A stretch of DNA of 44,893 bases. Source: Pirellulales bacterium. Its GTDB lineage: Bacteria > Planctomycetota > Planctomycetia > Pirellulales > UBA1268. Every line of letters starts with the position of its first letter. Within the stretch, counting starts at the first letter, position 1. The stretch is from the NCBI GenBank assembly GCA_040397585.1, contig JBBAVS010000001.1, positions 28,156 through 73,048 on the forward strand, given 5' to 3'. Of this stretch, positions 1 to 12,407 are shown piece by piece. The notes beneath the pieces were generated by a model. The model was not told where the DNA came from and ran no database searches. It worked only from the letters and a program-made list of their open reading frames with translations. Made by a program: the position numbers and the translations under genes.

Positions 1-40
1 TGCCCCCACTTCCGACCAGTCGCCCACACGTTTGCAGAAA

Positions 41-134
41 GTGGCCGCAGGTTTTTGACGTGGCCGCAGGTTTTCAACCTGCGGAACCTCGGGGTCAACT
101 CCACTCCCTGGGCAGGTTGAAAACCTGCCCCCAC
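41..134. repeat. REP doublet (REPIN-like inverted pair), copy A
   Basis: GTGGCCGCAGGTTTTCAACCTGCGG (60-84), a 25-bp spacer, then the inverted GGGCAGGTTGAAAACCTGCCCCCAC (110-134). A partial unit sits at 41-59, and bases 1-10 (TGCCCCCACT) look like the tail of another copy. A GTGG foot plus imperfect hairpin is the REP architecture. Confidence 0.8.
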
Positions 135-242
135 TGTTCGGCAGGCTGGTGCGAAACCCTGCCCTCACTCGAAGCCTCCTGGGGATTCAGAAGCACCGTA
201 GCCGTCCGAGTGGCCGACGGGGCATCGCCCGCAGGCCGCGGA

Positions 243-3218
243 TTATCGTCGCTGGTCTTCGTGAGGCCTTGGCGACGCACGGCCTGGCGATCCGGCGTCA
301 ATCGTGATGGACGGCGTCGCACTCGCACATCCGTGCACGCGTGGATCGCTGGCGCCGGAGAAAGTTCCGCCTCCGGCCCGCCGAATGATCTGGCAAGCCC
401 CGAACGCCGGCTCGCGACGAACATCGTGGCCGAGCGCCTCGAGGGCAGCGGCGAGTTCGTCCCCTGCGGCTTCCTCGACCTTCACCCGATCGGGCTTCCA
501 CTGGTGATGAAGCCGCGGCTGGGCCAGGGCCTCGGCCGGGGGCATGCCGTGGTCGAGCGAGTGGAGCATGCCCAGCAGAACCTGCGTGATGATCGTCGGG
601 CCTCCCGCCGCGCCGATGCTCATCACCGGCTCGGCTGCGGCGTCGAGCACGAGCGTCGGGCTCATGCTCGAGAGCGGCCGCTTCCCCGGCGCGACGCAGT
701 TGGCCTCGCCCCCCACGAGCCCGAAGTGGTTGGGCACTCCCGGGGCGACGGCGAAGTCGTCCATCTCGTTGTTGAGCAGCACACCGGTGCCGGGCACGAT
801 GACCTTCGACCCGAACGCGGTGTTGATCGTGGCCGTGATGCTCGCCCAGTTGCCTTCCGCGTCGGCTGTGGCGAAGTGGGTGGTGTGCTTGTGGAAGTGG
901 TCGCTCTGCCAGTCAGGCGGCTGGCCATGCTCCGGGACGGGCGTCGCCCTCTGGGGATCGATCCGCGCGGCGAGCTGCCGGGCGTAGTCGGTCGAGACGA
1001 GCCCGGTCGGCACGTCCGCGAACGCGGGATCGCCGAGCCAATGCGCCCGATCGGCGAAGGCCAGCTTCATTGTCTCGATCACGCGGTGGGCGAACATCAC
1101 GGAGCCGGCCCGCAGGTCGGCGGCGGGCTGCGCTTCGAGGATGTTCAGCATCTGGGCGATGTGGACCCCCCCGGAACTCGGCGGTGGAAAGCCGACGATC
1201 GTCCAGTCGCGATACCGTGACACCAGGGGCTGCCGCTCGATCGGTTGGTAGCCGCGAAAATCCTCCTCCGTGAGCAGGCCGCCCGCCTGCTTCATGAAGG
1301 CCGCGGTGTCGGCGGCGAACGCGCCGCGGTAGAACCAGGCCGTGCCCTCCGCCGCGATGGCTCGGTACGTGCGGGCCAAATCCTTCTGCACGAGCACGTG
1401 GCCGGCCGGCCACGGCGAATCGTCGGGCTGGAGGAACACGGCGCGCGAGGCCGGAAAGGCGGCGAGATCGGCGGCCGTGGCCTTGAGTTTGCGGCCGTAG
1501 ACGGCGTCGATCGGAAAGCCGTTCTCGGCATGACGGATGCCGGCCTGGCAGGCGGCGGCCAGCGGCAGTCGGCCGAACCGGTCCACGGCCTCCGCATACG
1601 CGGCGAGGGCGCCGGGCACCCCGCTCGCCAGCGGGCCGGTGCGGCTCAGGGCGTCGACGGCCACGCCGTCGCGGAGGAACATGTCGCGGCGGGCTGCGGC
1701 CGGCGCCGTCTCGCGACCGTCGAGGCAGATGAGCCTGCCATCGGCGAGGCGCATGAGAATGAAGCAGCCGCCGCCGATTCCGGAGTTGTGCCCGTCCACG
1801 ACGCCGAGCGTCAGGCCGGCAGCGACGGCCGCATCGATCGCGTTGCCGCCGGCGGCGAAGGCGTCGAGCGCGGCCTGGGTGGCCAGGGGGTGCACGCTCG
1901 CGGCATAGCCGTCCACGACCGGGGCGACGGCCGCCCCATCATCCAAGCGTTCCCACACGGCGGGCAGCTTCTCGGACACGAGTCTGCGGCCCGAGTCGGG
2001 AAGCAGGCGGCGCGTCAGCGGCACGACCAGCGTGTCTTCGAGGAATCGGCCGGGCTCACGGCCGTGCTTGAAGGCCTCGGTGAGACCGCCGCGGGCGTCG
2101 AGGCGCACGCCGGCCGCCGCCGGATTGGCGACCGAGAGGAAGAACAGGTCGCGAGTCGGGCCTGCCGGTTCGCGGCGGCGGATCCTGGTGGCTGCGAGGT
2201 CGCGAAACAGCTGCCGCGCCGTCCACTTCGCAGGATCGACGTAGTGTCGCACCGGCGCGATCACGGGAGCGAACGCCGGGTCTTCCCGCAGGGTCGCGAA
2301 GGCGGCGTCGATCTCCTTTTCCACGAGCGGGAAGTGGGTGCAGCCGAGCACGATGGTCGTGAGCGGGGTCGGTGCCGCACCGGCCAGCGCATCGCGGTGC
2401 GTCTCGACCAGCCGGCGGACGTCTTTCGCCACCTGGTCGTCCACGGTGGCGGTCCGCGACGGATCGCCCTCGATGACCGCGGCCAGATCGGCGCTCCCCT
2501 GCTGGGTGAGCGGCAGGCCGCGCCGTCCGGCCAGGCCGAGCGTGCTGCGGATCGTTCGCGGGTAGACGCCGCTGTCGCAGGTGCCGACCGTGGCCAGCAC
2601 GCCGATCGCGCCCGGCGGCGCCCCTTCGAGCACCCCCCGTGCGCCCGCCTCGACGACGCCGACGACGAGCACGGGAAGCCGCCAGCGGGCGACGGCCGCC
2701 CGCAGATCCTCCAGGCCGTAGGCCGTCGCCGTGTTGCAGGCGATGACGATCGCCTTGACGGGCGGCTTGTCGCGCCGGATCGCCCCGGTGGCGTGATAGC
2801 GGTTGCCGAGCAGGAAGATCGCGTCCTCGAGGATCAGCTCGCGGAGCAGGTCGGTCTTCCCCGCCTTGGGGTAGTTGCCGTAGGGCATGTTGGCCTGATC
2901 GCCGAGGTAGACGAACCGCTCGTTCTCGAAATCGGGCCGGCCGTCCGGTCCGGGCTTCAGGTCGTCGTTGTGGAACTCGTCGAGCGTGAGGATCGCCTCC
3001 AGCACGGTGAGGCCGCCGATGCCCGAATCGAACACGCCGATCGGCAGGGACGAGAGATCGCCGGTGTAGGCGGACCGGTCGAACGTGGAGACCGCGCTGC
3101 CGTCGGGATGGCTGGCCAGATGCGCGTCGATCGCATCGACGACGGCATCACCCGCCAGCGCCGGCGAGGCAGCGAGCAGGACCGCGAGCCACAGGCGGCG
3201 CAGGTGAACGACGGTCAT
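243..3218 (-). CDS. Secreted glutamate racemase (MurI-like) fused to gamma-glutamyltransferase, 991 aa
   Basis: ATG at 3218 overlaps the upstream stop (ATGA). Signal peptide MTVVHLRRLWLAVLLAASPALA. Racemase motifs PIGVFDSGIGGLTV, PYG, IACNTA, LGCTHFP. In frame after these come GGT motifs GGNAIDAAVA, SGIGGG, DGRE, HTTHF, NNEMDDF, PGKRPLSSMSP, AGGPTI. Confidence 0.9.
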   Translation of the reverse strand: MTVVHLRRLWLAVLLAASPALAGDAVVDAIDAHLASHPDGSAVSTFDRSAYTGDLSSLPIGVFDSGIGGLTVLEAILTLDEFHNDDLKPGPDGRPDFENERFVYLGDQANMPYGNYPKAGKTDLLRELILEDAIFLLGNRYHATGAIRRDKPPVKAIVIACNTATAYGLEDLRAAVARWRLPVLVVGVVEAGARGVLEGAPPGAIGVLATVGTCDSGVYPRTIRSTLGLAGRRGLPLTQQGSADLAAVIEGDPSRTATVDDQVAKDVRRLVETHRDALAGAAPTPLTTIVLGCTHFPLVEKEIDAAFATLREDPAFAPVIAPVRHYVDPAKWTARQLFRDLAATRIRRREPAGPTRDLFFLSVANPAAAGVRLDARGGLTEAFKHGREPGRFLEDTLVVPLTRRLLPDSGRRLVSEKLPAVWERLDDGAAVAPVVDGYAASVHPLATQAALDAFAAGGNAIDAAVAAGLTLGVVDGHNSGIGGGCFILMRLADGRLICLDGRETAPAAARRDMFLRDGVAVDALSRTGPLASGVPGALAAYAEAVDRFGRLPLAAACQAGIRHAENGFPIDAVYGRKLKATAADLAAFPASRAVFLQPDDSPWPAGHVLVQKDLARTYRAIAAEGTAWFYRGAFAADTAAFMKQAGGLLTEEDFRGYQPIERQPLVSRYRDWTIVGFPPPSSGGVHIAQMLNILEAQPAADLRAGSVMFAHRVIETMKLAFADRAHWLGDPAFADVPTGLVSTDYARQLAARIDPQRATPVPEHGQPPDWQSDHFHKHTTHFATADAEGNWASITATINTAFGSKVIVPGTGVLLNNEMDDFAVAPGVPNHFGLVGGEANCVAPGKRPLSSMSPTLVLDAAAEPVMSIGAAGGPTIITQVLLGMLHSLDHGMPPAEALAQPRLHHQWKPDRVKVEEAAGDELAAALEALGHDVRREPAFGACQIIRRAGGGTFSGASDPRVHGCASATPSITIDAGSPGRASPRPHEDQRR

Positions 3219-4621
3219 CGCGGCATGGTCTCCGGCGCCCGCTCGTCCGCACCCTCCGACACGCACGTGGCCACCACGAGGTCGCCGGTCACGTTCAGCA
3301 CCGTACGGCACATGTCGAGGATCCGATCCACTCCGAGGATGATCCCGATGCCCTCCCCGGGCACGCCCACCGACCGCATCAGCACCACGATCAACGGCAG
3401 CGAGCCCCCCGGCACGCCGGCGGTGCCGATGCCCGCAAGGATCGACATCAGCACCACCATCACCTGCTGGCCGATGCCCAGTTGCACGCCAAACACCTGT
3501 GCCAAAAACAGCACCACCACGCCCTCGTAGAGGGCCGTGCCATTCTGGTTGCCCGTGGCCCCCACGGTGAGCACGAACCGGGCGGTCTCGCGGGGCAGCC
3601 GGAGGTTCTGTTCGGCGACCCGCAGGGCGGTGGGCAGCGTGGCGTTTGACGACGACGTGCCGAACGCCACCTGCATCGCCTCGGCAACGGCCGCGAAGAA
3701 GGTCCGCGGCGACACCCGGCTGAAGAGCGCCAGCACCAGCGGATAGACCACCACCAGCTGGAGCAGCAGCCCCAGCATGACGGTCAGGGCGAACCAGGCC
3801 AGCGTGACGAGCACCTCGAAGCCCAGTGTTGCCACGATGGAGAACACGAGGCAGCCGGCGCCCAGCGGGGCCAGTGTCATCGCCCAGCCGATGATCGTCA
3901 TGGCCACCGCGTTGAGGCCCTCCAGGCAGGAGATCAGGCCGCGGCACTCCGCCGGCTTCGCGGCCAGCGCCGCCCCGAGGAAGAGCGACGCAAACATCAC
4001 GGCGAGCATCCCGTTGCCCTTGGAGCTGCCGTCGATCGCCCCGACCATCTCCTGGAGGGGATTCTCCGGGATCATGTCGATCACGATGTCGCGAATCGAC
4101 TTCGCCTTGCTTGCCTTCTGGCCCACGTCGGCGGAGCCCGCTGCGTTGCGGTCCACGAGCGCCTGCCGGGCATCCGCCGAGAGGGCCTCGCCCGGGCGGA
4201 TCACGTTGACCAGCGTGAGGCCTATGAGCACGGCGCTCGCCGAGAGGATTCCGGAAAACAGCAGCGTCCGCAGGCCGATCCGCCCGAGCTTCCGCAGGTC
4301 GCCAATCTCCACCACCGCCAGGGCCAGGGCCGAGACCACCAGCGGCAGCACCACCATGAACATCAGCCGGAGAAAGAGTCGGCCGATGACCGTGGTGACG
4401 TTCTGGCAGAACCAGTCGAGCCCGTCGTGGACGCCGTCGCCGTTGAGATCGCCGGCGACCACGCCATCGAGCGGCGCACCGGGACGCAGCAGGACGTTGG
4501 CCGCGAGCCCCAGCACGGTGCCCACCAGCAGTCCGATGAGGATCCGGCGGGCCGAGGCGTCGTGCCCGGGGCCGGCGGGGGGCTGCGGGCGATCGGATTC
4601 AGGAGCCGTGGTGGAAGGCAT
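3215..4621 (-). CDS. DAACS-family (GltP/GltT-like) glutamate/aspartate:cation symporter
   Basis: Multiple TM segments. Motifs FLRLMFMVVLPLV, IPENP, FGTSSSNATLP, ATGNQNGTALY, AGVPGG, GVDRILDMCRTVLNVTGD. The Arg that selects acidic substrates in this family is retained. Confidence 0.92.
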   Translation of the reverse strand: MPSTTAPESDRPQPPAGPGHDASARRILIGLLVGTVLGLAANVLLRPGAPLDGVVAGDLNGDGVHDGLDWFCQNVTTVIGRLFLRLMFMVVLPLVVSALALAVVEIGDLRKLGRIGLRTLLFSGILSASAVLIGLTLVNVIRPGEALSADARQALVDRNAAGSADVGQKASKAKSIRDIVIDMIPENPLQEMVGAIDGSSKGNGMLAVMFASLFLGAALAAKPAECRGLISCLEGLNAVAMTIIGWAMTLAPLGAGCLVFSIVATLGFEVLVTLAWFALTVMLGLLLQLVVVYPLVLALFSRVSPRTFFAAVAEAMQVAFGTSSSNATLPTALRVAEQNLRLPRETARFVLTVGATGNQNGTALYEGVVVLFLAQVFGVQLGIGQQVMVVLMSILAGIGTAGVPGGSLPLIVVLMRSVGVPGEGIGIILGVDRILDMCRTVLNVTGDLVVATCVSEGADERAPETMPR

Positions 4622-4747
4622 CGAGACCCCGGGGGAACCCTATCGACGCACGGAATCGAGCGTGCCGCGAACAGGATACCCGGCCGACTTCACAGGCGAC
4701 ACTCCACACGCTGGCTTTGCCAGCAGCGCTGGCGGGCAGGTCCTGGA

Positions 4748-4884
4748 AAGTAGCCGCAGGTTTTCACAAGTGGCCGCAGGTTTTCAAAAGTGGCCGCAGG
4801 TTTTCAAAAGTGGCCGCAGGTTTTCAACCTGCGGGGAGTGCAGGCCCATGGTGGTGCTTGGGCAGGTTGAAAACCTGCCCCCAC
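4748..4884. repeat. REP doublet copy B with tandemly amplified 20-bp left half-unit
   Basis: About four tandem AAGT(A/G)GCCGCAGGTTTTCA(C/A) units (4748-4827). The last is completed as a full REP (4810-4834), followed by a 25-bp spacer and the inverted REP (4860-4884), which is identical to 110-134. Confidence 0.85.
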
Positions 4885-5010
4885 TTCAAACCCTTGCCTC
4901 ACGGTCGGCGCAGAAGTGACCGGGTTGGATTTGCTGCACCAAGGGATATGCAGGGGCAGGTCAGGCGGCCCCGAGCCTGATACCCGCGCGAGCATCACGT
5001 GTGAGCCGTA

Positions 5011-7218
5011 TCAGTCGGCTTTGCGGAGGGGCCCATCATTTCCTCCAAAGTAACGGGTCAACACGGGCTCTTGGCATTCCAGAAATACTTCTCCTTTATG
5101 GGCAGTCAATAAATCAAGGACCTGTGACGGTACCGCCTCTCTGGAATGAATGCGGAGTTTTCCCTCATGACCACTGAGTGCTTCGGCAACGACGGGCAGT
5201 AAGGCACGGAAAGAAACGTGAAGCTCTCCACGGTGACGGGCTAGCACAGCCACCACGTCCGGCGACAATGCATCAAGACCGATGTCAGCGCTCGAGATGT
5301 GCAGTTCGCCGGAGAATTCGGCCAAGACACGTGCTGCGGTCGGGCTCAGGTCTTTCAGTTTCGGAAGCGATAAAGATCCTCCGTCTCTGTCTTTTACGAT
5401 TTTACCGGCAAGGGTCTCACTGGTGAGCGTCTGTAAGTTGTAGAGCTCAACATCTCCAGGAAATTGAGCTACCACTTCCGCCACGTCGTCGGAAAGCGAC
5501 TGCAGTTCACCCAGTTGGAGTGACTCGCCTGTGACCCCTTCGTAGTCCCCATCCGCGATAAGCTTCTCAGCGAGCCTCACGGAAGTAAGAGTCTTGAGTC
5601 CTGGCATCGTGAAGCGACAAGGACTATTGATAATCGCCGTAATACCTGGTTCGGAAATCTCCGCAAGGCCGGAGAGGGTCACATGTTTACGTTGTTCCGG
5701 ATCAAGCCTATCCCCCGGCCAGTTGTCTATCGCCAGGAAATCAACTGATGTATCTGATAGGGCTGTAACCCCGATTCCTAAATCATCAGCATGCTGTGCC
5801 AGCACTGTTTCTGCGTGCGGAGACAGTTTCGTCAACTTCCGCAAATAGAGAGGACCGCGGTGCCTGGCGAGATGCTCGGCGGCCGTGTCCGATAAGGATT
5901 CGATGTTGTTGAGGTTCACCGTACCCTTGAAGGCGGCGACCTCCTTTGCAAGAGCGTCCGAAATAGCCGGCAGACCATCTAACTCCAGAACGCCGTAGCC
6001 GGCTTCCGGTCTCCAAATCCAATCATTTTCGCCCTGTCCTCTCCGCTCCTGCAAGAAGGACTTGCGAGACTCGACGAGTTCCCGCATCGCATCCGGCTCT
6101 ACGTTCGAAAGGCTGTCGAACTTGAGACAGAGTACGCGTGACCTACCCAAGCGAGAAGCGTCGTTCTTGGATAGCGACGCAAGCCCTTCCATTGAGAATC
6201 CTGCCTTCTCGAACTCGCACATGCGGTTTTTCACACCATTCCATCCGTCTTCAATGACCTCAGTCGGCAGACCCTCTCTGTTCATGGAATCAACAAGGTT
6301 TTTGGCAAGGTGGTTGTCGTCAGCCTCTGCGATCCTCCAGTTGGTAGACTTGATCGTTGCACTCTGAAATAGCCAACGTGGACCTTGTTTACCGCAGGTT
6401 ATTTCACATTCGGCATCACCCTCAATGACGATCTTCTTGCCTTCCGCGTCTTGCCTGAGCGGATGCACCGTAGAGTACGTGATCGTCCCGACATAGGGAG
6501 TAGTGAGTGAATCAGTTTTGCGAAGGTCAAATCGTATATTGCGTATTGGAAGCAAAGGGCAGGTAAGCTCCAGATTCTCGGTTTTGGTCCGTGCGAATCG
6601 CTCGAATGTGGCAAGCGGGGTGTTGGTTTTGTACCAGTCCCACCCGTAGCCAGCGGCGGACAAGACGCCAATAAGGCAGCCGATAGCGATCACGGCACGA
6701 GCCGAGGAGCGGATGGTCGCGTTCCACTCCCGTGCCGGCAACCGCCAAGCTGAAGTGGCAGTCCCCGCTATCTGAATAGGTATGGTGTCGGCGGCCACTT
6801 GCTCTTTCGTCACTTGCTTAGCCGCACGGGCCTGCTCGAGTCTGTGCTTTGCTTGACGGAGCTGCTCTTCGGCTCGAGGCGACAGGCGGTACCGCTGTCG
6901 ACACTTCGGGCAGGCATCGCTCTGGGACATCTCATCTTCTTTGGAGGCGAGCGATTCACGGCATCGTGGACAGGTATAGCTCACGGAAAAAGTACCTTGC
7001 AGAATCGAGTGATCAATCTTGATCGTTTCGATCACTGCGATGTCTGCTGCTTCAATGAACTCACCCACCAGAGCCCAAGGGCCAGTTAATGCCTCGGCAA
7101 CTTCGTCCGAGGGCAGGAGTTTTCCGGCCTTTACCAGTGGCGCGAGTTGGGTCCTCGGAATAGGCCCTTTTACGGTACTGCCGCGACGGATGAAAACTGT
7201 TCTCTGCTTTTCACTCAT
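5011..7218 (-). CDS. Hypothetical membrane-anchored protein: N-terminal GYF-like segment, Zn-ribbon, TM helix, C-terminal leucine-rich-like repeats
   Basis: 735-aa ORF. KGPI...LVKAGKLLPSDEV...PW (GYF_2-like), CPRC...CPKC, hydrophobic AVIAIGCLIGVLSAAGYGW, and repeated ~23-aa units (LNNIESLSDTAAEHLARHRG, LGELQSLSDDVAEVVAQFPG, LPKLKDLSPTAARVLAEFSG). Visibly AT-richer than its flanks. Confidence 0.75.
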   Translation of the reverse strand: MSEKQRTVFIRRGSTVKGPIPRTQLAPLVKAGKLLPSDEVAEALTGPWALVGEFIEAADIAVIETIKIDHSILQGTFSVSYTCPRCRESLASKEDEMSQSDACPKCRQRYRLSPRAEEQLRQAKHRLEQARAAKQVTKEQVAADTIPIQIAGTATSAWRLPAREWNATIRSSARAVIAIGCLIGVLSAAGYGWDWYKTNTPLATFERFARTKTENLELTCPLLPIRNIRFDLRKTDSLTTPYVGTITYSTVHPLRQDAEGKKIVIEGDAECEITCGKQGPRWLFQSATIKSTNWRIAEADDNHLAKNLVDSMNREGLPTEVIEDGWNGVKNRMCEFEKAGFSMEGLASLSKNDASRLGRSRVLCLKFDSLSNVEPDAMRELVESRKSFLQERRGQGENDWIWRPEAGYGVLELDGLPAISDALAKEVAAFKGTVNLNNIESLSDTAAEHLARHRGPLYLRKLTKLSPHAETVLAQHADDLGIGVTALSDTSVDFLAIDNWPGDRLDPEQRKHVTLSGLAEISEPGITAIINSPCRFTMPGLKTLTSVRLAEKLIADGDYEGVTGESLQLGELQSLSDDVAEVVAQFPGDVELYNLQTLTSETLAGKIVKDRDGGSLSLPKLKDLSPTAARVLAEFSGELHISSADIGLDALSPDVVAVLARHRGELHVSFRALLPVVAEALSGHEGKLRIHSREAVPSQVLDLLTAHKGEVFLECQEPVLTRYFGGNDGPLRKAD

Positions 7219-7362
7219 GGTTCACCGTATGCACATCGAGGGTCTTGTTGAGAGGTTAGTTCGGTCGCACGTGGTTCCGCAACACGTTGCGGTGGACCGG
7301 CGATTCGTGAGCCTCGGGATCGGATCTGCCAGCCCCGCCGAGTCGGCCGATGCCCGCAGCGT

Positions 7363-7612: not shown

Positions 7613-10600
7613 TTAATTCGTCCGCGGCGTGGGCTTCGGGATTGGCTTCGCGGTGAGTTCGCCGACGACCCAGTCGAGGCCCTCGAGGTTGTCAAGGAGC
7701 CGAGCCTCTGCGTCGTGGCCGGTGTGGTTGAGGATCCCGATCGGGCCAGTGTAGCCGCTCTCGCAGATCGTCTTCGCGAGTGCCACGTCGAGATCGCCCT
7801 GGCCGATGACGAGAATCTTCCTTCCGGTCGATTCACCATCGGCGGTCATGCCATTGAGGTTGAGGAAGTGCAGGTGCGGCAGCATCTTCGCGAGGGCCTC
7901 TTTGAACCGCGGCAGGTGGCTGTGACCGTGGTGCTGGTTGTAGACGATACCGACGGTGGGCATGGCGAGGGCCTCGCACACGGCCACCATGTTTTCCGGC
8001 TCCCCGCCCCAGCCGCCGTGGTTGTAGATGGAGACGCGGCAGCCCGCCTTCGCGGCCTGCTCGGCCACGGGCCGCAGGGCATCGGCGGCGTGCTTCACCT
8101 TCGCCGCCTGGTCGAGCTCGGCGGGGGCACCGATCATCGTCCAAAACGACGGCTTGAGCCCGCGCTTCTCGAGGCTTGTGAGCAGCCCGGGAAAATCCGG
8201 TGGTGTGGCCCAGAAGGCGTCGAGTGCGACGCCGTGCTTCGCGAGCGCGTCCCACTCCCGGTCGAACGTGGGGATGTGCTCCGGCCGCCAGTCGTAGGCG
8301 AAGTGCGTGAAGCCGAGTTTTTCGAGCATCGCCGCGCGATCCTCGGGGCCGCGCTGCTTGGCGTCGAACGGCACGATGCACCAGGCCACGAGGTTGTCGC
8401 GGCGGAAGAGCTCCTGCGCCTTCGCGGCGACATCGATGGGCTCGTCGTCTTCCACGATGAGCAGGCCGTTCATCAGCTTCCAATGGCCCGGGAACGTGCA
8501 GAGGAAGGGATAGCGGCCCGGCGCGTCGGGTACGGTGAAGTAAATCGTCTGCCGCTTGCCGGGCTCGGTGATGTCGGCGTAGGCGACGACGTCGTCGGTC
8601 TTGGGCACATAGTGCCGGGCCACGGCCTCGGGGTCGGCGATGAGCCCGTCGGCGAGTGTGCCAACGGCGGCGAGCATGCCGGGCTTTGCAAGCACCCAGT
8701 TGTGCGGCACGACGTCGGGATTCACGAACGTGAGGGCCAGTTTTTCACCGGGCTTGGCCCGCAGTTCCGGCGTCTTGTAGGCGAGGTTCGAGGCGACCTC
8801 CATCACGAGCTCGCGGGAGCCCTCCACCTTCGTCAGCCAGGGATTCTTGACCGTGGCCTTTATCATCGCGACGTCGCGCAGGATCGGGAGGGCCCCGACG
8901 GGCCGCGTCACTTCCTGATAGTTCGGAATATCACGAAACGGCTCGTCGAGCGCGTGCACGGTGGCGAACACGTCGCGTGTCGTGTCTGGGCCGACCGCCA
9001 CCTGAAGATGCAGCTGGTTCACCGGCTGGAGGTCGGGCATCTCAAGAAACAGGCTCTGGCCGTCGGAGAGCACCGTGGCCGAGCGGATCGCGAGTGGATC
9101 GTGGCCCACCGTGCCGTAGTGGCTCGGTGAAAACTCGGGCGAGCCATACGCCGGGCCGTAGCGGTAGTTCCAGCACTGGGCGAAGTGGCTCGCCGCGTCG
9201 GCCGCCACACTGCGTTCGAGCGGCGCCGAGAATCGCAGCAGCACGCCGTTGCGGTGAGCCCGAATCCCGACCGGCTGCTGCACGGTGCCGCCGACATAGC
9301 GCACGCGCTGGAAGCAGCCATCGTCGACGCCGTAGACATGCCAGCCGTTCATGCCGCTCGCGTAGAGCTGGCCGTCGGCGGGGCTGAACCGGCCGCGGTG
9401 GACGCCCGAGCGGAAGTCGCCGACAAGCGGCACGACGGCTCCCTGCGGCTGGCCGGCAACCTCATCGCGGAGCACGAGGAAGTGCGTGCAGGCGCCAAAC
9501 GAAAAGTGCACGAGCTGGCCGCCGAGCGGTCCCCAGCGGTCGCTCGATACATACGTCTGCCCGCCGCTCGAGTGGTCGAGCCCGCGTGGCAAATACACCA
9601 TCGGCAGGGCCGGGGGAACGCCCCGGAAATTCAGCACGGGGTTCGCGGGCGGCTGGCCCGGCTTCTGCTTCACCTCGCAGATCGCCGAGGCGTTGGCGTA
9701 GTCGCCTTCGGAGACCGGCACGGTGATTGAGCCGTCAGGCAGGAGCGCGAGGCCGTCGGGGTCGCGAAAGCCCGTGGCCACGATGTCGATCGTCTGGCCG
9801 TCGGGGCTGATCCGCAGCAGTCCCTGGTGCGAGGCGGTGAAGAAGTTGCCGGCCACGTCGCGCTCGAGGCCGCACTTGTAGCTGTGGCCGCCGGACGGCT
9901 CGAAGCGGTTGGTCACGCAGCCGTAGAAATCGGCCTCGCCATCGCCGTTGGTGTCGTCGAGCCGGGTGAGCTGGTCGCCGCAGAGCACATACACGACGTC
10001 GTCTGTCACGACGAGGCCGAGGGCCTGGTTGAGGCCGGCCGCCATCCGCCGCCAACGCACGCTCTTGAGCTCGGCGTCGAGGCCGGAGACCCGCCACACG
10101 TCGCCCTGGATCGTGCAGATCGCGGCATCGCCGTTCGAGAAGAAGTCGTGCCCCCCGAAAAACATCAGGCTGCCCCATGGGTTGTCCACCGGCAGCGCGA
10201 TCGTGTCGACAGCATACGGCGCGCCCGAGCCAAGGGTGCCGGTGGTGGTGAGCGTCTGCGGCCACCGGCTGGGGCCACCTCTCCAGACGTGCGCGAGCGA
10301 ATGGCTCGCGAGCGGCGCGATCTCGCGGACGAGCGCGCCATCCTTCACCCACGGCGCGTCGAGATACTGCACGCCGTCGATCAGGTAGAGGAAGAGAACC
10401 CGCTTCCCATGCCGATAAAACCCTTGATACGTGTGCGGACCGGGCGGCAGTTCCGCCGCGGCGGGCGGCGGGCTGACGGGGCCGGCCGGAGTGGCCGGTG
10501 AGAGGAAGCCGTAGCGGGTTTTGTCGAACTTCAGGAAGCCGCTGGTCCACGTGGCCTCAAACTGGAGCGTATCGGGGTTGAAGCAGGCGGCGAGTTCGCC

Positions 10601-11512
10601 CGAGTCGCCGAGCCGCACATTCACGGCCCGCGGGATCGTCCGCTCGTCAAGCCTCAGTGGCCAGGCCTGCACGGTGCCCTGGTCGCAGGTGTCGCGGCGG
10701 GTGTCGTCCCACGTGGACCAGGGGATGCTGCCCCAGTGGCCGTGCGTGCCGCCGTCGAGGCCGGGATACGCGGGGAGCAGGATCGGCATCGGATTGCGGT
10801 CGCGAAACTGCCTGGCCTGCTTCGTGTAGGCGTCATAAATGCGGTGCTCGTTGACCCACAGGCCGCGGTTCGGCCAATCCGCGGGCACGAGCGGCTCGCG
10901 GGGCACGTCAAAGGTGCCCGGGCGGTGGGAGAGCGACTCGAGGCCCGGCGTGCGGCCGAGTTCGAGGAGATAGCGGACCAGGTCGCGCCGCTGCTCCGCC
11001 GGGAGCGACGTGAACACGTTGGCCGGCATGAGGGAGCCGACCTCGGTCCGCTCCTCGATCTCGCCGGGCGGCACGCTATGGCTGTTGCCCGTGGCGTCGA
11101 CGACGACCACGGCCGCCGGCGTCTCCTCCTTGACGATGCCCTGAAGCACGCGGCCGTCGGCCAGCGTGAAGGCATAGGCCCGATACTCGGGCTTCACGGC
11201 CCGCGCGGGCCAATAGACGCTCTCGACGATCTCCTCGGGCGAAAGGCACTTGGCGATCGTGGTGAGTTCGGGGCCCACCGCGCCGCCCTCGCCGGCCACC
11301 TTGTGGCACGCCGTGCAGCCGGTCGTGGCCACGCTGAACACGCCGGCCCCACGCCGGGCGTCACCCTGCGCCCGCGCGTCGGCCAGGGCCTCTTGGACGA
11401 ATGCGGCGTTCCACTCGGGCGGAGCGTGCTGCCCGCCGGCAGCGCTCGCAGCCGCGCATGCGGCCAGCGCGATCACGACGGCCCGTAGTCTGATGGAAAA
11501 GACCGGCAACAT
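7613..11512 (-). CDS. Exported multidomain redox protein: heme c domain + DUF6797-like/beta-propeller + azurin-like cupredoxin + xylose-isomerase-like TIM barrel, 1299 aa
   Basis: Signal peptide MLPVFSIRLRAVVIALAACAAASA. GDARRG...CTACH...VGPELT...SLMP (planctomycete-type heme-binding domain). DTNGDGEAD and ATGFRDPDGL propeller motifs. PHNWVL...CTFPGHWKLM type-1 copper ligands. C-terminal YNHGGWGGEPEN, YNQHHGH, GYTGPIGILNH. Start chosen from the signal peptide. Confidence 0.8.
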   Translation of the reverse strand: MLPVFSIRLRAVVIALAACAAASAAGGQHAPPEWNAAFVQEALADARAQGDARRGAGVFSVATTGCTACHKVAGEGGAVGPELTTIAKCLSPEEIVESVYWPARAVKPEYRAYAFTLADGRVLQGIVKEETPAAVVVVDATGNSHSVPPGEIEERTEVGSLMPANVFTSLPAEQRRDLVRYLLELGRTPGLESLSHRPGTFDVPREPLVPADWPNRGLWVNEHRIYDAYTKQARQFRDRNPMPILLPAYPGLDGGTHGHWGSIPWSTWDDTRRDTCDQGTVQAWPLRLDERTIPRAVNVRLGDSGELAACFNPDTLQFEATWTSGFLKFDKTRYGFLSPATPAGPVSPPPAAAELPPGPHTYQGFYRHGKRVLFLYLIDGVQYLDAPWVKDGALVREIAPLASHSLAHVWRGGPSRWPQTLTTTGTLGSGAPYAVDTIALPVDNPWGSLMFFGGHDFFSNGDAAICTIQGDVWRVSGLDAELKSVRWRRMAAGLNQALGLVVTDDVVYVLCGDQLTRLDDTNGDGEADFYGCVTNRFEPSGGHSYKCGLERDVAGNFFTASHQGLLRISPDGQTIDIVATGFRDPDGLALLPDGSITVPVSEGDYANASAICEVKQKPGQPPANPVLNFRGVPPALPMVYLPRGLDHSSGGQTYVSSDRWGPLGGQLVHFSFGACTHFLVLRDEVAGQPQGAVVPLVGDFRSGVHRGRFSPADGQLYASGMNGWHVYGVDDGCFQRVRYVGGTVQQPVGIRAHRNGVLLRFSAPLERSVAADAASHFAQCWNYRYGPAYGSPEFSPSHYGTVGHDPLAIRSATVLSDGQSLFLEMPDLQPVNQLHLQVAVGPDTTRDVFATVHALDEPFRDIPNYQEVTRPVGALPILRDVAMIKATVKNPWLTKVEGSRELVMEVASNLAYKTPELRAKPGEKLALTFVNPDVVPHNWVLAKPGMLAAVGTLADGLIADPEAVARHYVPKTDDVVAYADITEPGKRQTIYFTVPDAPGRYPFLCTFPGHWKLMNGLLIVEDDEPIDVAAKAQELFRRDNLVAWCIVPFDAKQRGPEDRAAMLEKLGFTHFAYDWRPEHIPTFDREWDALAKHGVALDAFWATPPDFPGLLTSLEKRGLKPSFWTMIGAPAELDQAAKVKHAADALRPVAEQAAKAGCRVSIYNHGGWGGEPENMVAVCEALAMPTVGIVYNQHHGHSHLPRFKEALAKMLPHLHFLNLNGMTADGESTGRKILVIGQGDLDVALAKTICESGYTGPIGILNHTGHDAEARLLDNLEGLDWVVGELTAKPIPKPTPRTN

Positions 11513-11645
11513 AATGAAAGGATAGTCGTCGCCGCGGAGACCGGCTTGCCAAGGGGCGGCAGAGGATGGAATCAGACCGGCGTGCACGCGACGGCGGGCG
11601 TGGGATAATCTCCGAAACGTCCAACCGGTCCTCGGAGATTCTCTC

Positions 11646-12407
11646 ATGGAGTCCTCCCGCGATCTACAACCACTCGATCCAGTGGCAGCGGGCGTCGCCG
11701 GACTGCTCGACCAGATCGAGGGAGTGCAGTGCTGGATCAAGGACCGCGAGGGCCGCTACGCCTGGGTCAACCGTGGGTTCCTGCTCAACTATGCGCTCGA
11801 GCGGACCGAGCAGGTCGTCGGACGCACCGATCACGACCTCTCGCCTCCACATCTTGCCGATCAGTATCGGCTTGACGACGACCATGCGCTCGGTGGCGGG
11901 ACGGTCGACGGACGGATCGAACTCGTGGGCCGCTTCGATCGCACCGCGGTCTGGTCGCTGACCACGAAGAAGCCGCTCCACGACGCCCGCGGGCGGATCA
12001 TCGGCACGCTGGGCATGACGCGGGTGGTCGATGCCGACGTCGTGCACGCGGGCAGCGAGGACGCGGCCCTCGGCCTGGTTCTCGTGCACATGCGGAGAAA
12101 CTTCGCCGAGCCACTTTCCAATTCCGCGCTTGCGCGGATCGCAGGCCGCTCAGTGCGGGCCTTCGAGCGGATGTTTCGTCGACAGATGCAGGCGACGCCG
12201 CAGCAGTTCCTGCGCAGGCTGCGGTTGCGGCTGGCGTGCCGCGAGTTGACAACGTCGCGCCGTTCGCTCGCTGCGATCGCCGCGGACCACGGCTTCTGCG
12301 ACCAGAGCCACTTCGTTCGCGAGTTTCGCCGCGAATTTGGGCTCCCACCGGGGGAGTACCGCAAACGGCAGGACGGGCCGATTCGCCGGGATCGGCCGCC
12401 TCGCTAG
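11646..12407 (+). CDS. AraC-family transcriptional regulator with N-terminal PAS domain
   Basis: WIKDREGRY...VVGRTDHDL...KKPLHDARGRIIGTLG (PAS) and LARIAGRSVRAFERMF...IAADHGFCDQSHFVREFRREFGLPPGEYR (AraC HTH). Confidence 0.92.
   Translation: MESSRDLQPLDPVAAGVAGLLDQIEGVQCWIKDREGRYAWVNRGFLLNYALERTEQVVGRTDHDLSPPHLADQYRLDDDHALGGGTVDGRIELVGRFDRTAVWSLTTKKPLHDARGRIIGTLGMTRVVDADVVHAGSEDAALGLVLVHMRRNFAEPLSNSALARIAGRSVRAFERMFRRQMQATPQQFLRRLRLRLACRELTTSRRSLAAIAADHGFCDQSHFVREFRREFGLPPGEYRKRQDGPIRRDRPPR

What the first reader, a model, noticed from the sequence alone, without database searches (positions are those of the whole stretch)
243..4621. Exported glutamate racemase-GGT fusion coupled to a Glu/Asp symporter: candidate D-glutamyl scavenging system
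Seen: one uninterrupted ORF carries a signal peptide, a racemase domain with both catalytic Cys motifs (ACNT, GCTH; ~1945-3150) and a complete GGT (nucleophile Thr of HTTHF at 882-884; DGRE, TIN, NEMDD, SS, GG retained). It is translationally coupled (ATGA) to a DAACS transporter that keeps the acidic-substrate DxxRT..N...D motif. Known: MurI is normally cytoplasmic and supplies D-Glu for peptidoglycan; GGTs are exported, self-cleave, and release Glu from gamma-glutamyl compounds. Inference: a release-racemise-import module in which GGT frees D-Glu from gamma-D-glutamyl compounds (muropeptide gamma-D-Glu-mDAP, D-Gln, poly-gamma-glutamate oligomers), the tethered racemase makes L-Glu outside the cytoplasm, and the symporter imports it. 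The reverse direction, making D-glutamyl products, is also possible. The lid loop is present (PNHFGLVGG, Phe at the position of the E. coli Tyr), which favours small substrates over polymer. I know of no characterised fusion of this kind but cannot search.
Basis: partly seen in the sequence, partly recalled or inferred. Interest (0 to 1): 0.85.

Follow-up and report, generated by a model that had tools for sequence, protein, structure and literature searches.

The report
Exported glutamate racemase fused to GGT
A freshwater planctomycete encodes one exported protein that joins a glutamate-racemase-like enzyme to a gamma-glutamyl hydrolase beside a glutamate/aspartate-type transporter gene, and the racemase part belongs to a so far undescribed family of exported racemases that may let bacteria feed on D-glutamate.

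Summary
Window 243-3218 (-) is one 991-aa ORF: signal-like N-terminus, MurI-like racemase module, short linker, complete lid-loop GGT. Its ATG overlaps (ATGA) the stop of a DAACS transporter gene (3215-4621). Contigs of four other studies bridge the domain junction, and four further protein clusters (77-98% identical) carry the same fusion, so it is no chimera.

New here: the racemase part is not a stray MurI. It belongs to a distinct exported family (136 clusters at E<=1e-30), mostly stand-alone ~430-aa proteins of Verrucomicrobiota that also keep a normal MurI. The motifs DSGxGG, xCNT and GCTH are kept in 121, 121 and 120 of 121 members. Longer members are fused to D-aminoacylase-type (26 of 120), DD-peptidase, VanX, M14 or GH5-like domains. 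In two relatives racemase and GGT are adjacent separate genes, so the window shows a gene fusion. The host genome shows no MurI, MurD, MraY or MurG, which argues against a cell-wall role.

Not supported: the transporter link is found only in this species, and nothing shows D-specific GGT activity. Best reading (0.5): periplasmic glutamate release plus D-to-L conversion for uptake. A new variant of known kinds, untested biochemically.

The parts
3215..4621 (-). DAACS (SDF) transporter gene, 468 aa (P0002), closest to Glu/Asp transporters
   Evidence: PF00375 357 bits. GltP model 206 bits, below its 638 cut-off. Best solved relative is an aspartate transporter, 9bgz, E 2.8e-75.
3281..3328 (-). 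Substrate-site motif DRILDMCRTVLNVTGD of the transporter (Asp, Arg-Thr, Asn, Asp retained)
   Evidence: for coordinates; aligned to GIDRILDMARTTVNVTGD of 9bgz.
3215..3218 (-). ATGA overlap: start codon of the fusion ORF overlaps the stop codon of the transporter gene
   Evidence: Bridged by contigs of X3, X5 and X6 (records 5, 12, 22).
243..3218 (-). Fusion ORF, 991 aa (P0001) plus stop codon
   Evidence: Fused relatives P0003-P0006, 77-98% identical over the module.
3150..3218 (-). Signal-peptide-like N-terminus, residues 1-23
   Evidence: Read from the sequence. Helix 3-16 with low pLDDT in the model. Hydrophobic N-termini in relatives. Not tested with SignalP.
1944..3149 (-). Exported MurI-like racemase module, residues 24-425 (MurI core plus N-terminal helix, one insertion and a C-terminal extension)
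   Evidence: AF2 model pLDDT 90. Foldseek top hits are all MurI, TM 0.75-0.81 on the target. phmmer top 23 of 25 PDB sequences are MurI. Conserved across A1 up to about residue 425.
2736..2738 (-). Cys161 (ACNT motif), first catalytic-type cysteine
   Evidence: xCNT present in 121 of 121 family members checked.
2340..2342 (-). Cys293 (GCTH motif), second catalytic-type cysteine
   Evidence: GCTH present in 120 of 121.
1914..1943 (-). Interdomain linker, residues 426-435, replacing the stop codon, spacer and GGT signal peptide seen in L004
   Evidence: L004 has separate genes. In-frame 12-nt insertion behind 1923 in contigs of X5, X6 and X7.
885..1913 (-). GGT large-subunit part, residues 436-778
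246..884 (-). GGT small-subunit part, residues 779-991, beginning with nucleophile Thr779 (882-884) and holding the lid loop (708-734)
   Evidence: aligns from residue 1 of the E. coli small chain 2dbu_B.
24..138 (.). REP-like interspersed repeat downstream of the operon (not part of the system)
   Evidence: Its 17-mer core occurs 603 times in the genome.
4736..4897 (.). Same REP-like repeat (four 20-nt tandem units plus hairpin) upstream of the transporter gene

Best explanation
Window 243-4621 is a two-gene operon of a freshwater planctomycete. The first gene encodes a Glu/Asp-type DAACS transporter. The second encodes an exported bifunctional enzyme. After export, the GGT half should cleave itself before Thr779 and hydrolyse small gamma-glutamyl compounds, releasing free glutamate of either handedness. 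The N-terminal half, which stays tethered to the GGT large subunit, is a cofactor-independent two-cysteine racemase of a distinct exported MurI-like family. It should interconvert D- and L-glutamate outside the cytoplasm. Uptake of L-Glu then pulls the equilibrium, so D-glutamate becomes usable carbon and nitrogen. Shown: the ORF, the domains, the motifs, the fold model, the family, the fusion from adjacent genes, and the missing cell-wall pathway. Inferred: export, both activities, glutamate as the racemase substrate, the D-to-L direction, and use of the neighbouring transporter.
For: Real and fused. Contigs of 4 studies bridge the junction. Four further fused clusters exist. Racemase competence: DSGxGG, xCNT and GCTH occur in 121, 121 and 120 of 121 homologues. 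D64, S65, P112-Y113-G114, C161-N162-T163, E190, T210, T213 and C293-T294-H295 are invariant in A1 and align with MurI motifs. The model has pLDDT 90 and hits MurI only. Separate family: four Verrucomicrobial genomes hold a normal MurI (200-248 bits) as well as this paralogue (65-77 bits). There are 136 clusters at E<=1e-30. No biosynthetic role here: this ORF is the only PF01177 hit in the genome. MurI, MurD, MraY and MurG are not found over their cut-offs in a 94%-complete genome, and 0 of 31 genomes of the order have MurI. Link to hydrolases: racemase and GGT are adjacent in L004 and L006 and fused in 5 clusters, forming one clade with support 0.991. 26 of 120 longer members carry a domain closest to D-aminoacylase and N-acyl-D-glutamate deacylase. 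Others carry S11, VanX or M14 domains. GGT: TIGR00066 at 452 bits, above the 357.85 cut-off, with all glutamyl-binding residues and the lid loop. E. coli GGT accepts D-glutamine as donor, and lid loops favour small substrates (passages of PMC8062742). The transporter keeps the amino-acid-type site.
Against: No biochemical data exist for any member. The transporter adjacency is limited to this species among what I could see. The GGT shows no sequence feature pointing to D-glutamyl donors. The largest fusion class (58 of 120) has a GH5-like partner, and others carry GH39, DUF1080, DUF4838, ApbE or YCII domains, which the D-glutamate model does not explain. The module scores below the MurI equivalog cut-off (83.5 against 146.65) and has insertions, so another substrate is possible. 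Export rests on reading N-termini; my hydrophobicity test has a 41% background.
Confidence: 0.5

Rival explanations
1. The two halves work in parallel, not in sequence. The GGT salvages ordinary gamma-L-glutamyl compounds such as glutathione and glutamine. The racemase converts free environmental D-Glu that does not come from the GGT. The fusion only ensures co-export and co-expression of two glutamate-supplying enzymes.
For: In 78 of 81 reading frames at module loci the frame stops 122-163 residues after GCTH, so there is no C-terminal partner and the racemase needs none. The GGT is E. coli-like, about 50% identical. Complex prediction gave no verdict either way and is not used as evidence.
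Against: Adjacency and then fusion within one clade, and repeated fusion of the module to enzymes that release D-amino acids, suggest product hand-over rather than mere co-expression.
Confidence: 0.22
2. The racemase runs L to D. The exported enzyme makes periplasmic or extracellular D-Glu, or gamma-D-glutamyl products through GGT transpeptidation, as a signal, an antagonist of neighbours' cell walls or an envelope component.
For: Racemases are reversible. PLP-dependent periplasmic racemases that release D-amino acids for wall remodelling are known (recalled, not from a call). The lid-loop type of GGT is the transpeptidase-proficient type (passages of PMC8062742).
Against: The host shows no MurD, MraY or MurG, so it has no wall of its own to remodel. 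The partners D-aminoacylase, VanX and S11 are degradative. The operon partner is an importer type. D-amino acids are described as poor acceptors for E. coli GGT (PMC8062742 passage).
Confidence: 0.12
3. The MurI-like module acts on something other than free glutamate, for example D/L-aspartate, a glutamyl peptide or an acidic sugar-amino acid conjugate. Or it is a non-catalytic binding domain that targets the fused hydrolases to D-Glu-containing polymers.
For: It scores below the MurI cut-off and carries insertions and a C-terminal extension. Partners include the GH5-like, GH39 and DUF1080 domains, which fit glycan targets.
Against: Both cysteines and all aligned MurI glutamate-contact motifs are practically invariant. 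A binding-only domain would not keep the Cys pair in 120 of 121 members. The aspartate racemase model scores far lower (24.4 bits).
Confidence: 0.12
4. Assembly artefact: two genes wrongly joined in the metagenome-assembled genome.
For: Close relatives L004 and L006 have separate genes.
Against: Contigs of 4 runs from 4 studies bridge 1899-1960; three carry an in-frame 12-nt linker variant. Four more fused clusters come from other sources at 77-98% identity.
Confidence: 0.01

Closest known systems
MurI glutamate racemase (EC 5.1.1.3; e.g. PDB 2jfo, 1zuw, 2dwu)
   Same: Fold (Foldseek TM 0.75-0.81 on the target). The two-cysteine motifs ACNT and GCTH. The DSGxGG, PYG and TxGT motifs.
   Different: Signal-like N-terminus. 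About 400 instead of about 265 residues, with an N-terminal helix, a 17-residue insertion and a C-terminal extension. Below the equivalog cut-off (83.5 against 146.65 bits). Co-exists with a normal MurI in Verrucomicrobia. Occurs in a genome without a detectable murein pathway.
Escherichia coli periplasmic gamma-glutamyltranspeptidase (PDB 2e0w, 2dbu)
   Same: About 50% identical over 520 residues, E 8.6e-120. Nucleophile Thr, glutamyl-binding residues and a 12-residue lid loop.
   Different: It has no signal peptide of its own; the large subunit carries a roughly 400-residue racemase at its N-terminus. Phe replaces the lid-loop Tyr, as in human GGT (PMC8062742 passage).
Periplasmic broad-spectrum amino-acid racemases (BsrV of Vibrio, Alr-type of Pseudomonas putida); recalled, not from a call
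   Same: Racemisation of free amino acids outside the cytoplasm, in part for catabolism of D-amino acids.
   Different: Those enzymes are PLP-dependent alanine-racemase-fold proteins and, as I recall, do not act on acidic amino acids. This module is a cofactor-independent Asp/Glu-racemase-fold protein with MurI glutamate-site motifs.
Bacillus GGT in poly-gamma-glutamate degradation
   Same: An exported GGT that frees D- and L-Glu from a gamma-glutamyl substrate for use as nutrient (PMC8062742 passages).
   Different: Bacillus GGTs lack the lid loop and accept polymer. The window's GGT has the lid loop, which points to small substrates. Bacillus racemases are cytoplasmic and separate.
D-aminoacylase / N-acyl-D-glutamate deacylase (PDB 1m7j, 3gip) fused to the same module (e.g. 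P0095)
   Same: Same exported racemase module joined to a hydrolase that liberates a D-amino acid.
   Different: Different hydrolase, and the module is C-terminal. These form a separate clade of the module tree.
Glu/Asp DAACS transporters (GltPh/GltTk, aspartate transporter 9bgz, E. coli GltP)
   Same: SDF fold family and the Asp...Arg-Thr...Asn...Asp substrate site.
   Different: Below the GltP equivalog cut-off (206 against 638 bits). Has a 60-residue N-terminal extension. Substrate and stereoselectivity untested.

Membership tests
MurI glutamate racemase (TIGR00067) | Score at or above the curated equivalog cut-off | tested here: not met
   83.5 bits against a cut-off of 146.65; 67.4 bits in the genome search.
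MurI glutamate racemase (TIGR00067) | Two-domain Asp/Glu racemase fold | tested here: met
   AF2 pLDDT 90. Foldseek ranks 1-47 as listed are all MurI, E down to 2.6e-18, TM on target up to 0.81.
MurI glutamate racemase (TIGR00067) | Catalytic cysteine pair in CNT and GCTH motifs | tested here: met
   Cys161 and Cys293; kept in 121 and 120 of 121 relatives.
MurI glutamate racemase (TIGR00067) | Glutamate-contact motifs (DSGxGG, PYG, TxGT, CTH) | tested here: met
   Invariant columns of A1, aligned to E. faecalis MurI. Which residues contact glutamate is recalled from MurI structures, not computed here.
MurI glutamate racemase (TIGR00067) | Cytoplasmic enzyme supplying D-Glu to MurD | tested here: not met
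   Signal-like N-terminus. No MurD (best 21.8 bits), MraY (52.8 against 192) or MurG found in the 94%-complete genome.
MurI glutamate racemase (TIGR00067) | Glu racemase activity | not testable with these tools
   Needs an enzyme assay.
Gamma-glutamyltransferase (TIGR00066 / PF01019, Ntn hydrolase T03) | Score above the curated cut-off over full length | tested here: met
   452 bits against 357.85, profile positions 3-518 of 518; PF01019 533 bits.
Gamma-glutamyltransferase (TIGR00066 / PF01019, Ntn hydrolase T03) | Nucleophile Thr at the start of the small subunit, and glutamyl-binding Arg, Asn, Asp, Ser-Ser and Gly-Gly | tested here: met
   Thr779. DGRETAP, TINTAFG, NNEMDDF, PLSSMSP and GAAGGP align to E. 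coli GGT.
Gamma-glutamyltransferase (TIGR00066 / PF01019, Ntn hydrolase T03) | Lid loop (E. coli type) | tested here: met
   PGVPNHFGLVGG aligned to PGVPNVYGLVGG.
Gamma-glutamyltransferase (TIGR00066 / PF01019, Ntn hydrolase T03) | Autoprocessing and hydrolase/transpeptidase activity; D or L donor preference | not testable with these tools
   Needs expression and assay.
DAACS / SDF transporter, Glu/Asp type | SDF family membership | tested here: met
   PF00375 357 bits.
DAACS / SDF transporter, Glu/Asp type | Amino-acid-type binding site (Asp before Arg-Thr, then Asn and Asp) | tested here: met
   LDMCRTVLNVTGD aligned to LDMARTTVNVTGD of aspartate transporter 9bgz. The roles of these residues are recalled from GltPh/EAAT work.
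DAACS / SDF transporter, Glu/Asp type | GltP equivalog score | tested here: not met
   206 bits against 638.
Conserved release-racemise-import gene module | Racemase-GGT linkage conserved in relatives | tested here: met
   Adjacent genes in L004 and L006, fused in P0001 and P0003-P0006, all in one clade. Only 2 of the 80 module loci examined hold a GGT.
Conserved release-racemise-import gene module | Transporter linkage conserved in relatives | tested here: not met
   SDF hits in 0 of 80 module loci and 1 of 80 GGT loci. None of the 11 transporter loci fetched from other genomes of the genus has the racemase or GGT within 1.5 kb. The contigs of P0004-P0006 could not be fetched.

The most novel reading that the evidence does not exclude
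PVC bacteria (Verrucomicrobiota and some Planctomycetota) possess a previously unrecognised family of exported, cofactor-independent glutamate racemases. The family converts D-Glu to L-Glu in the periplasm. It is repeatedly wired, by fusion or adjacency, to enzymes that liberate D-amino acids or glutamate: D-aminoacylase, DD-peptidases, VanX, M14 and GGT. This would be a new extracytoplasmic route for consuming the D-glutamate pool of peptidoglycan debris, N-acyl-D-amino acids and gamma-D-glutamyl peptides in lakes and oceans. It would operate even in bacteria that make no peptidoglycan precursor themselves.
Probability: 0.4. Interest if true: 0.75.

Novelty: new variant of a known kind. Interest (0 to 1): 0.6.

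Why it matters
D-amino acids from bacterial cell walls are a sizeable, slowly turned-over part of aquatic dissolved organic nitrogen. Known routes for D-glutamate use are cytoplasmic. An exported racemase of the MurI type would place the chirality switch outside the cell, upstream of L-specific transporters. The known periplasmic racemases are PLP enzymes that, as I recall, do not handle acidic amino acids, so this would fill that gap. The family also gives MurI-like genes a meaning in genomes that lack the murein pathway. This matters for annotation: sources named these proteins 'glutamate racemase', 'cellulase family glycosylhydrolase' or 'gamma-glutamyltranspeptidase'. It matters too for the debate on D-Glu supply in PVC bacteria (PMC5885031, passages seen). 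As an enzyme, a natural racemase-GGT fusion could be of use for making or resolving gamma-D/L-glutamyl compounds.

Tried and rejected
1. Complex prediction of the racemase module (residues 24-430, A1) against the GGT part (A2, 540 residues) returned 'no answer', score 0.00 in two runs, and controls were not run. It is no evidence either way.

3. The metagenome-contig scan with P0001 returned 80 GGT loci but none with the racemase module.

4. A phylum-wide search with the 440-aa module found it in 2 of 401 genomes at E<=1e-20. The first-look filter may miss relatives at about 45% identity, so I use this only as 'rare in those searched'.

5. Neighbour clustering around 80 module loci gave a Gate-domain membrane protein (PF07670) upstream in 20 loci. 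Most are closely related Verrucomicrobiaceae, so this may be plain synteny, and I draw no function from it.

6. The gene upstream of the stand-alone module in L005 is a PepT-like M20 peptidase without a clear signal peptide. I do not count it as a functional link.

7. The hydrophobic-segment heuristic for signal peptides scored 66 of 74 loci ORFs and 105 of 120 proteins, but also 181 of 444 control windows. It is weak; 7 ORFs cut by contig ends were left out.

8. The repeats flanking the operon looked like cassette boundaries, but their core occurs 603 times in the genome, so that idea was rejected.

9. The GH5-like partner (P0021) has no sequence hit among solved GH5 structures at E<=0.001. 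Its specificity stays unknown.

10. Literature: eight searches found no paper on an exported MurI-type racemase or a racemase-GGT fusion. Subscription journals and supplements are not covered.

11. A full-length structure prediction was considered but not run, because the tool returns no interdomain geometry.

Full report
OBSERVATION. On the minus strand, window 243-3947 is open. The plausible start is the ATG at 3218-3216. It gives a 991-aa protein (P0001) beginning MTVVHLRRLWLAVLLAASPALAG, and the closest relatives start at the same Met. This ATG overlaps the TGA of the upstream ORF 3215-4621 (P0002, 468 aa) as ATGA. Pfam finds Asp_Glu_race at residues 145-323 (E 2e-14) and G_glu_transpept at 454-962 (E 1e-159). 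P0002 is an SDF transporter (E 1.4e-106).

NOT A CHIMERA. I laid contigs of four public runs from four studies on window 200-4700. Each has a contig that bridges the racemase/GGT junction: X3 record 3 (1696-2373), X5 record 10 (762-2104), X6 record 19 (1639-2491) and X7 record 28 (1693-3223). Three of them carry an in-frame 12-nt insertion behind 1923, inside the linker, as expected of a true interdomain linker. The ATGA junction is bridged in X3, X5 and X6. Independently, four more protein clusters from other sources have the same architecture at 77-98% identity over the module (P0003-P0006, 968-991 aa).

THE GGT HALF is ordinary. It scores 452 bits on TIGR00066, above the cut-off of 357.85. 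It aligns over 520 residues with E. coli GGT (2e0w, E 8.6e-120). The alignment includes the Arg of DGRETAP, the nucleophile Thr, TIN, NNEMDDF, SS, GG and the 12-residue lid loop, with Phe at the position of the E. coli Tyr. A review, of which I saw passages (PMC8062742), states three things. Lid-loop GGTs handle small donors rather than poly-gamma-glutamate. Human GGT also has Phe at that site. E. coli GGT uses D-glutamine as a gamma-glutamyl donor. D-glutamyl donors are thus plausible, but nothing in the sequence singles them out.

THE RACEMASE HALF is the interesting part. It matches MurI models but below their cut-offs (TIGR00067: 83.5 against 146.65 bits). Of the 25 solved sequences matched at E<=0.01, the top 23 are MurI and the last two are aspartate racemases. 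An AlphaFold2 model of residues 1-440, built on an 18-row alignment (A1), has mean pLDDT 90. Foldseek returns MurI structures only at ranks 1-47 as listed, with target TM-scores up to 0.81. Compared with MurI there is an N-terminal helix, an insertion after the DSGIGG helix, and a C-terminal extension to about residue 425.

A FAMILY, NOT A ONE-OFF. A word-indexed search with residues 1-440, restricted to proteins of 545-1735 aa, gave 260 hits, of which 120 are listed. By the precomputed Pfam labels the second domain is:
- GH5-like, 58
- Amidohydro_3 (D-aminoacylase type), 26
- none, 16
- S11/beta-lactamase-like, 5
- GGT, 4
- YCII, 3
- DUF1080, 2
- one each of GH39, M14, DUF4838, ApbE, PF14100 and VanX-type M15

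I confirmed seven representatives by hmmscan. The amidohydrolase partner of P0095 is closest to D-aminoacylase (1m7j, E 3e-71) and N-acyl-D-glutamate deacylase (3gip, E 9e-60). The motifs DSGxGG, xCNT and GCTH are present in 121, 121 and 120 of the 121 family sequences held. The glutamate-site columns are invariant in A1.

A scan of one genome per species found 361 loci, and the best 80 were kept. 75 of these carry Verrucomicrobiota-type labels by my reading of the titles. In 78 of 81 reading frames the frame stops 122-163 residues after GCTH, so the commonest form is a stand-alone protein of roughly 430 aa. An exhaustive phmmer over 1.84 billion cluster representatives gives 136 clusters at E<=1e-30, 602 at E<=1e-10 and 3634 at E<=0.001. 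The last figure includes ordinary MurI.

Four Verrucomicrobial genomes with a stand-alone member also have a normal MurI (200-248 bits, ORFs of about 275 aa). The family is therefore a separate paralogue. N-termini look like signal peptides or lipoprotein signals in most members, but my heuristic is weak and SignalP was not available.

ORIGIN OF THE FUSION. In L004 the racemase gene ends with a stop right after a sequence matching residues up to 427 of P0001. A separate GGT gene with its own hydrophobic N-terminus starts 95 nt later. L006 is alike. The window's linker thus replaces the stop codon, the spacer and the GGT signal peptide. A FastTree tree of 201 module sequences was built from all sequences that had both motifs and more than 300 residues, with midpoint root. 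It places the five fused sequences (support 0.971) as sister to L005 plus L004/L006, within one clade of eight (0.991). That clade is nested among stand-alone Verrucomicrobial members that are 70-73% identical to the window's module. The module is patchy in the host lineage: 4 of 19 genomes of the genus and 2 of 401 of the phylum at E<=1e-20 (possibly insensitive). I infer horizontal acquisition, then linkage to a GGT, then fusion.

THE HOST DOES NOT NEED D-GLU FOR A WALL. The window carries planctomycete hallmarks (PSCyt1), and same-genus contigs are labelled Planctomycetaceae or Pirellulales. In the 94%-complete genome this ORF is the only PF01177 hit. No MurI, MurD (best 21.8 bits), MraY (52.8 against 192) or MurG is found. 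None of 31 genomes of the order has MurI over the cut-off. This fits a paper stating that most PVC bacteria lack MurI (PMC5885031, passages). A biosynthetic role is therefore unlikely here.

THE TRANSPORTER. P0002 is closest to a solved aspartate transporter (9bgz, E 2.8e-75) and keeps LDMCRT..N...D. As I recall from GltPh/EAAT work, that motif marks an acidic amino-acid site. The linkage is not conserved, however:
- No SDF hit in 80 module loci.
- One SDF hit in 80 GGT loci.
- The 11 transporter loci fetched from other genomes of the genus (66-88% identical) have neither racemase nor GGT within 1.5 kb.
- The four closest of them share no flank synteny with the window.
- G009 has both the transporter and the racemase-GGT pair, but on different contigs.

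The ATGA coupling is thus a recent, species-level arrangement. It is suggestive for this organism but is not a family trait.

MECHANISM. Best reading (0.5): after export, the GGT half self-cleaves and releases Glu from small gamma-glutamyl compounds of either handedness. The tethered racemase equilibrates D- and L-Glu. L-specific uptake, here probably by the co-translated DAACS carrier, pulls the flux. The family-wide association with D-aminoacylase, DD-peptidase, VanX and M14 domains supports a role in using D-amino-acid-containing debris. Candidate natural donors are speculation: gamma-D-Glu-mDAP peptides, D-Gln, short poly-gamma-glutamate, and gamma-D-Glu fragments of cyanobacterial peptides.

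The rivals are:
- parallel rather than sequential action of the two halves (0.22)
- an L-to-D direction for signalling or product synthesis (0.12)
- another substrate, or a binding-only role (0.12)
- an assembly artefact (0.01)

The unexplained point is the GH5-like partner of about half of the long members. It has no solved sequence relative.

NOVELTY. Eight full-text searches found nothing on exported MurI-type racemases or racemase-GGT fusions. NCBIfam 20.0 has no model for the family. Each domain is of a known kind; the exported racemase family and its wiring are new variants. Supplements of papers were not seen.

Noticed in passing
window 24-138 and 4736-4897: A REP-like interspersed element (20-nt tandem units plus a hairpin) flanks the operon on both sides. 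Its 17-nt core occurs 603 times in the genome (311 forward, 292 reverse; reversed-pattern control 0) but only 4 times in the 44.9-kb window, all at these two flanks.
   Followed up: partly
window 4750-7250: GC content drops from about 0.70 to 0.54-0.57 over ORF 5011-7218 (-), a 735-aa protein with CxxC pairs near the N-terminus and no Pfam hit. Possibly a foreign gene next to the operon.
   Followed up: partly
G000, whole genome: No MurI, MurD, MraY or MurG over the cut-offs in a 94%-complete genome, and no MurI in 31 genomes of the order. The lineage seems to lack the canonical murein precursor pathway.
   Followed up: partly
L086 1366-4543, L087 6148-9259, L088 1941-5064: The nearest GGT-only relatives (about 60% identical, freshwater metagenomes) sit directly downstream of a second, distant GGT paralogue (27% identical), a tandem GGT pair.
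   Followed up: no
L077 5223-7010 and 19 other module loci: In 20 of 80 module loci, mostly Verrucomicrobiaceae, a Gate-domain (PF07670, nucleoside recognition / SpmA-SpmB-like) membrane protein lies directly upstream on the same strand as the stand-alone exported racemase. It may be a transporter partner or plain synteny.
   Followed up: partly
proteins P0020-P0091: 58 of 120 long family members join the racemase module to a divergent GH5-like domain (Pfam 50.6 bits in P0021) that has no sequence hit among solved structures. Why a glycosidase-like domain should be joined to a glutamate racemase is unexplained.
   Followed up: partly
window 7613-11740 (-): A 1375-aa protein combines DUF6797, a plastocyanin/azurin-like copper domain and a xylose-isomerase-like TIM barrel. 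Window 25528-28272 (-) encodes a PSCyt1 plus WD40 protein. Both are typical planctomycete multidomain exported proteins.
   Followed up: no
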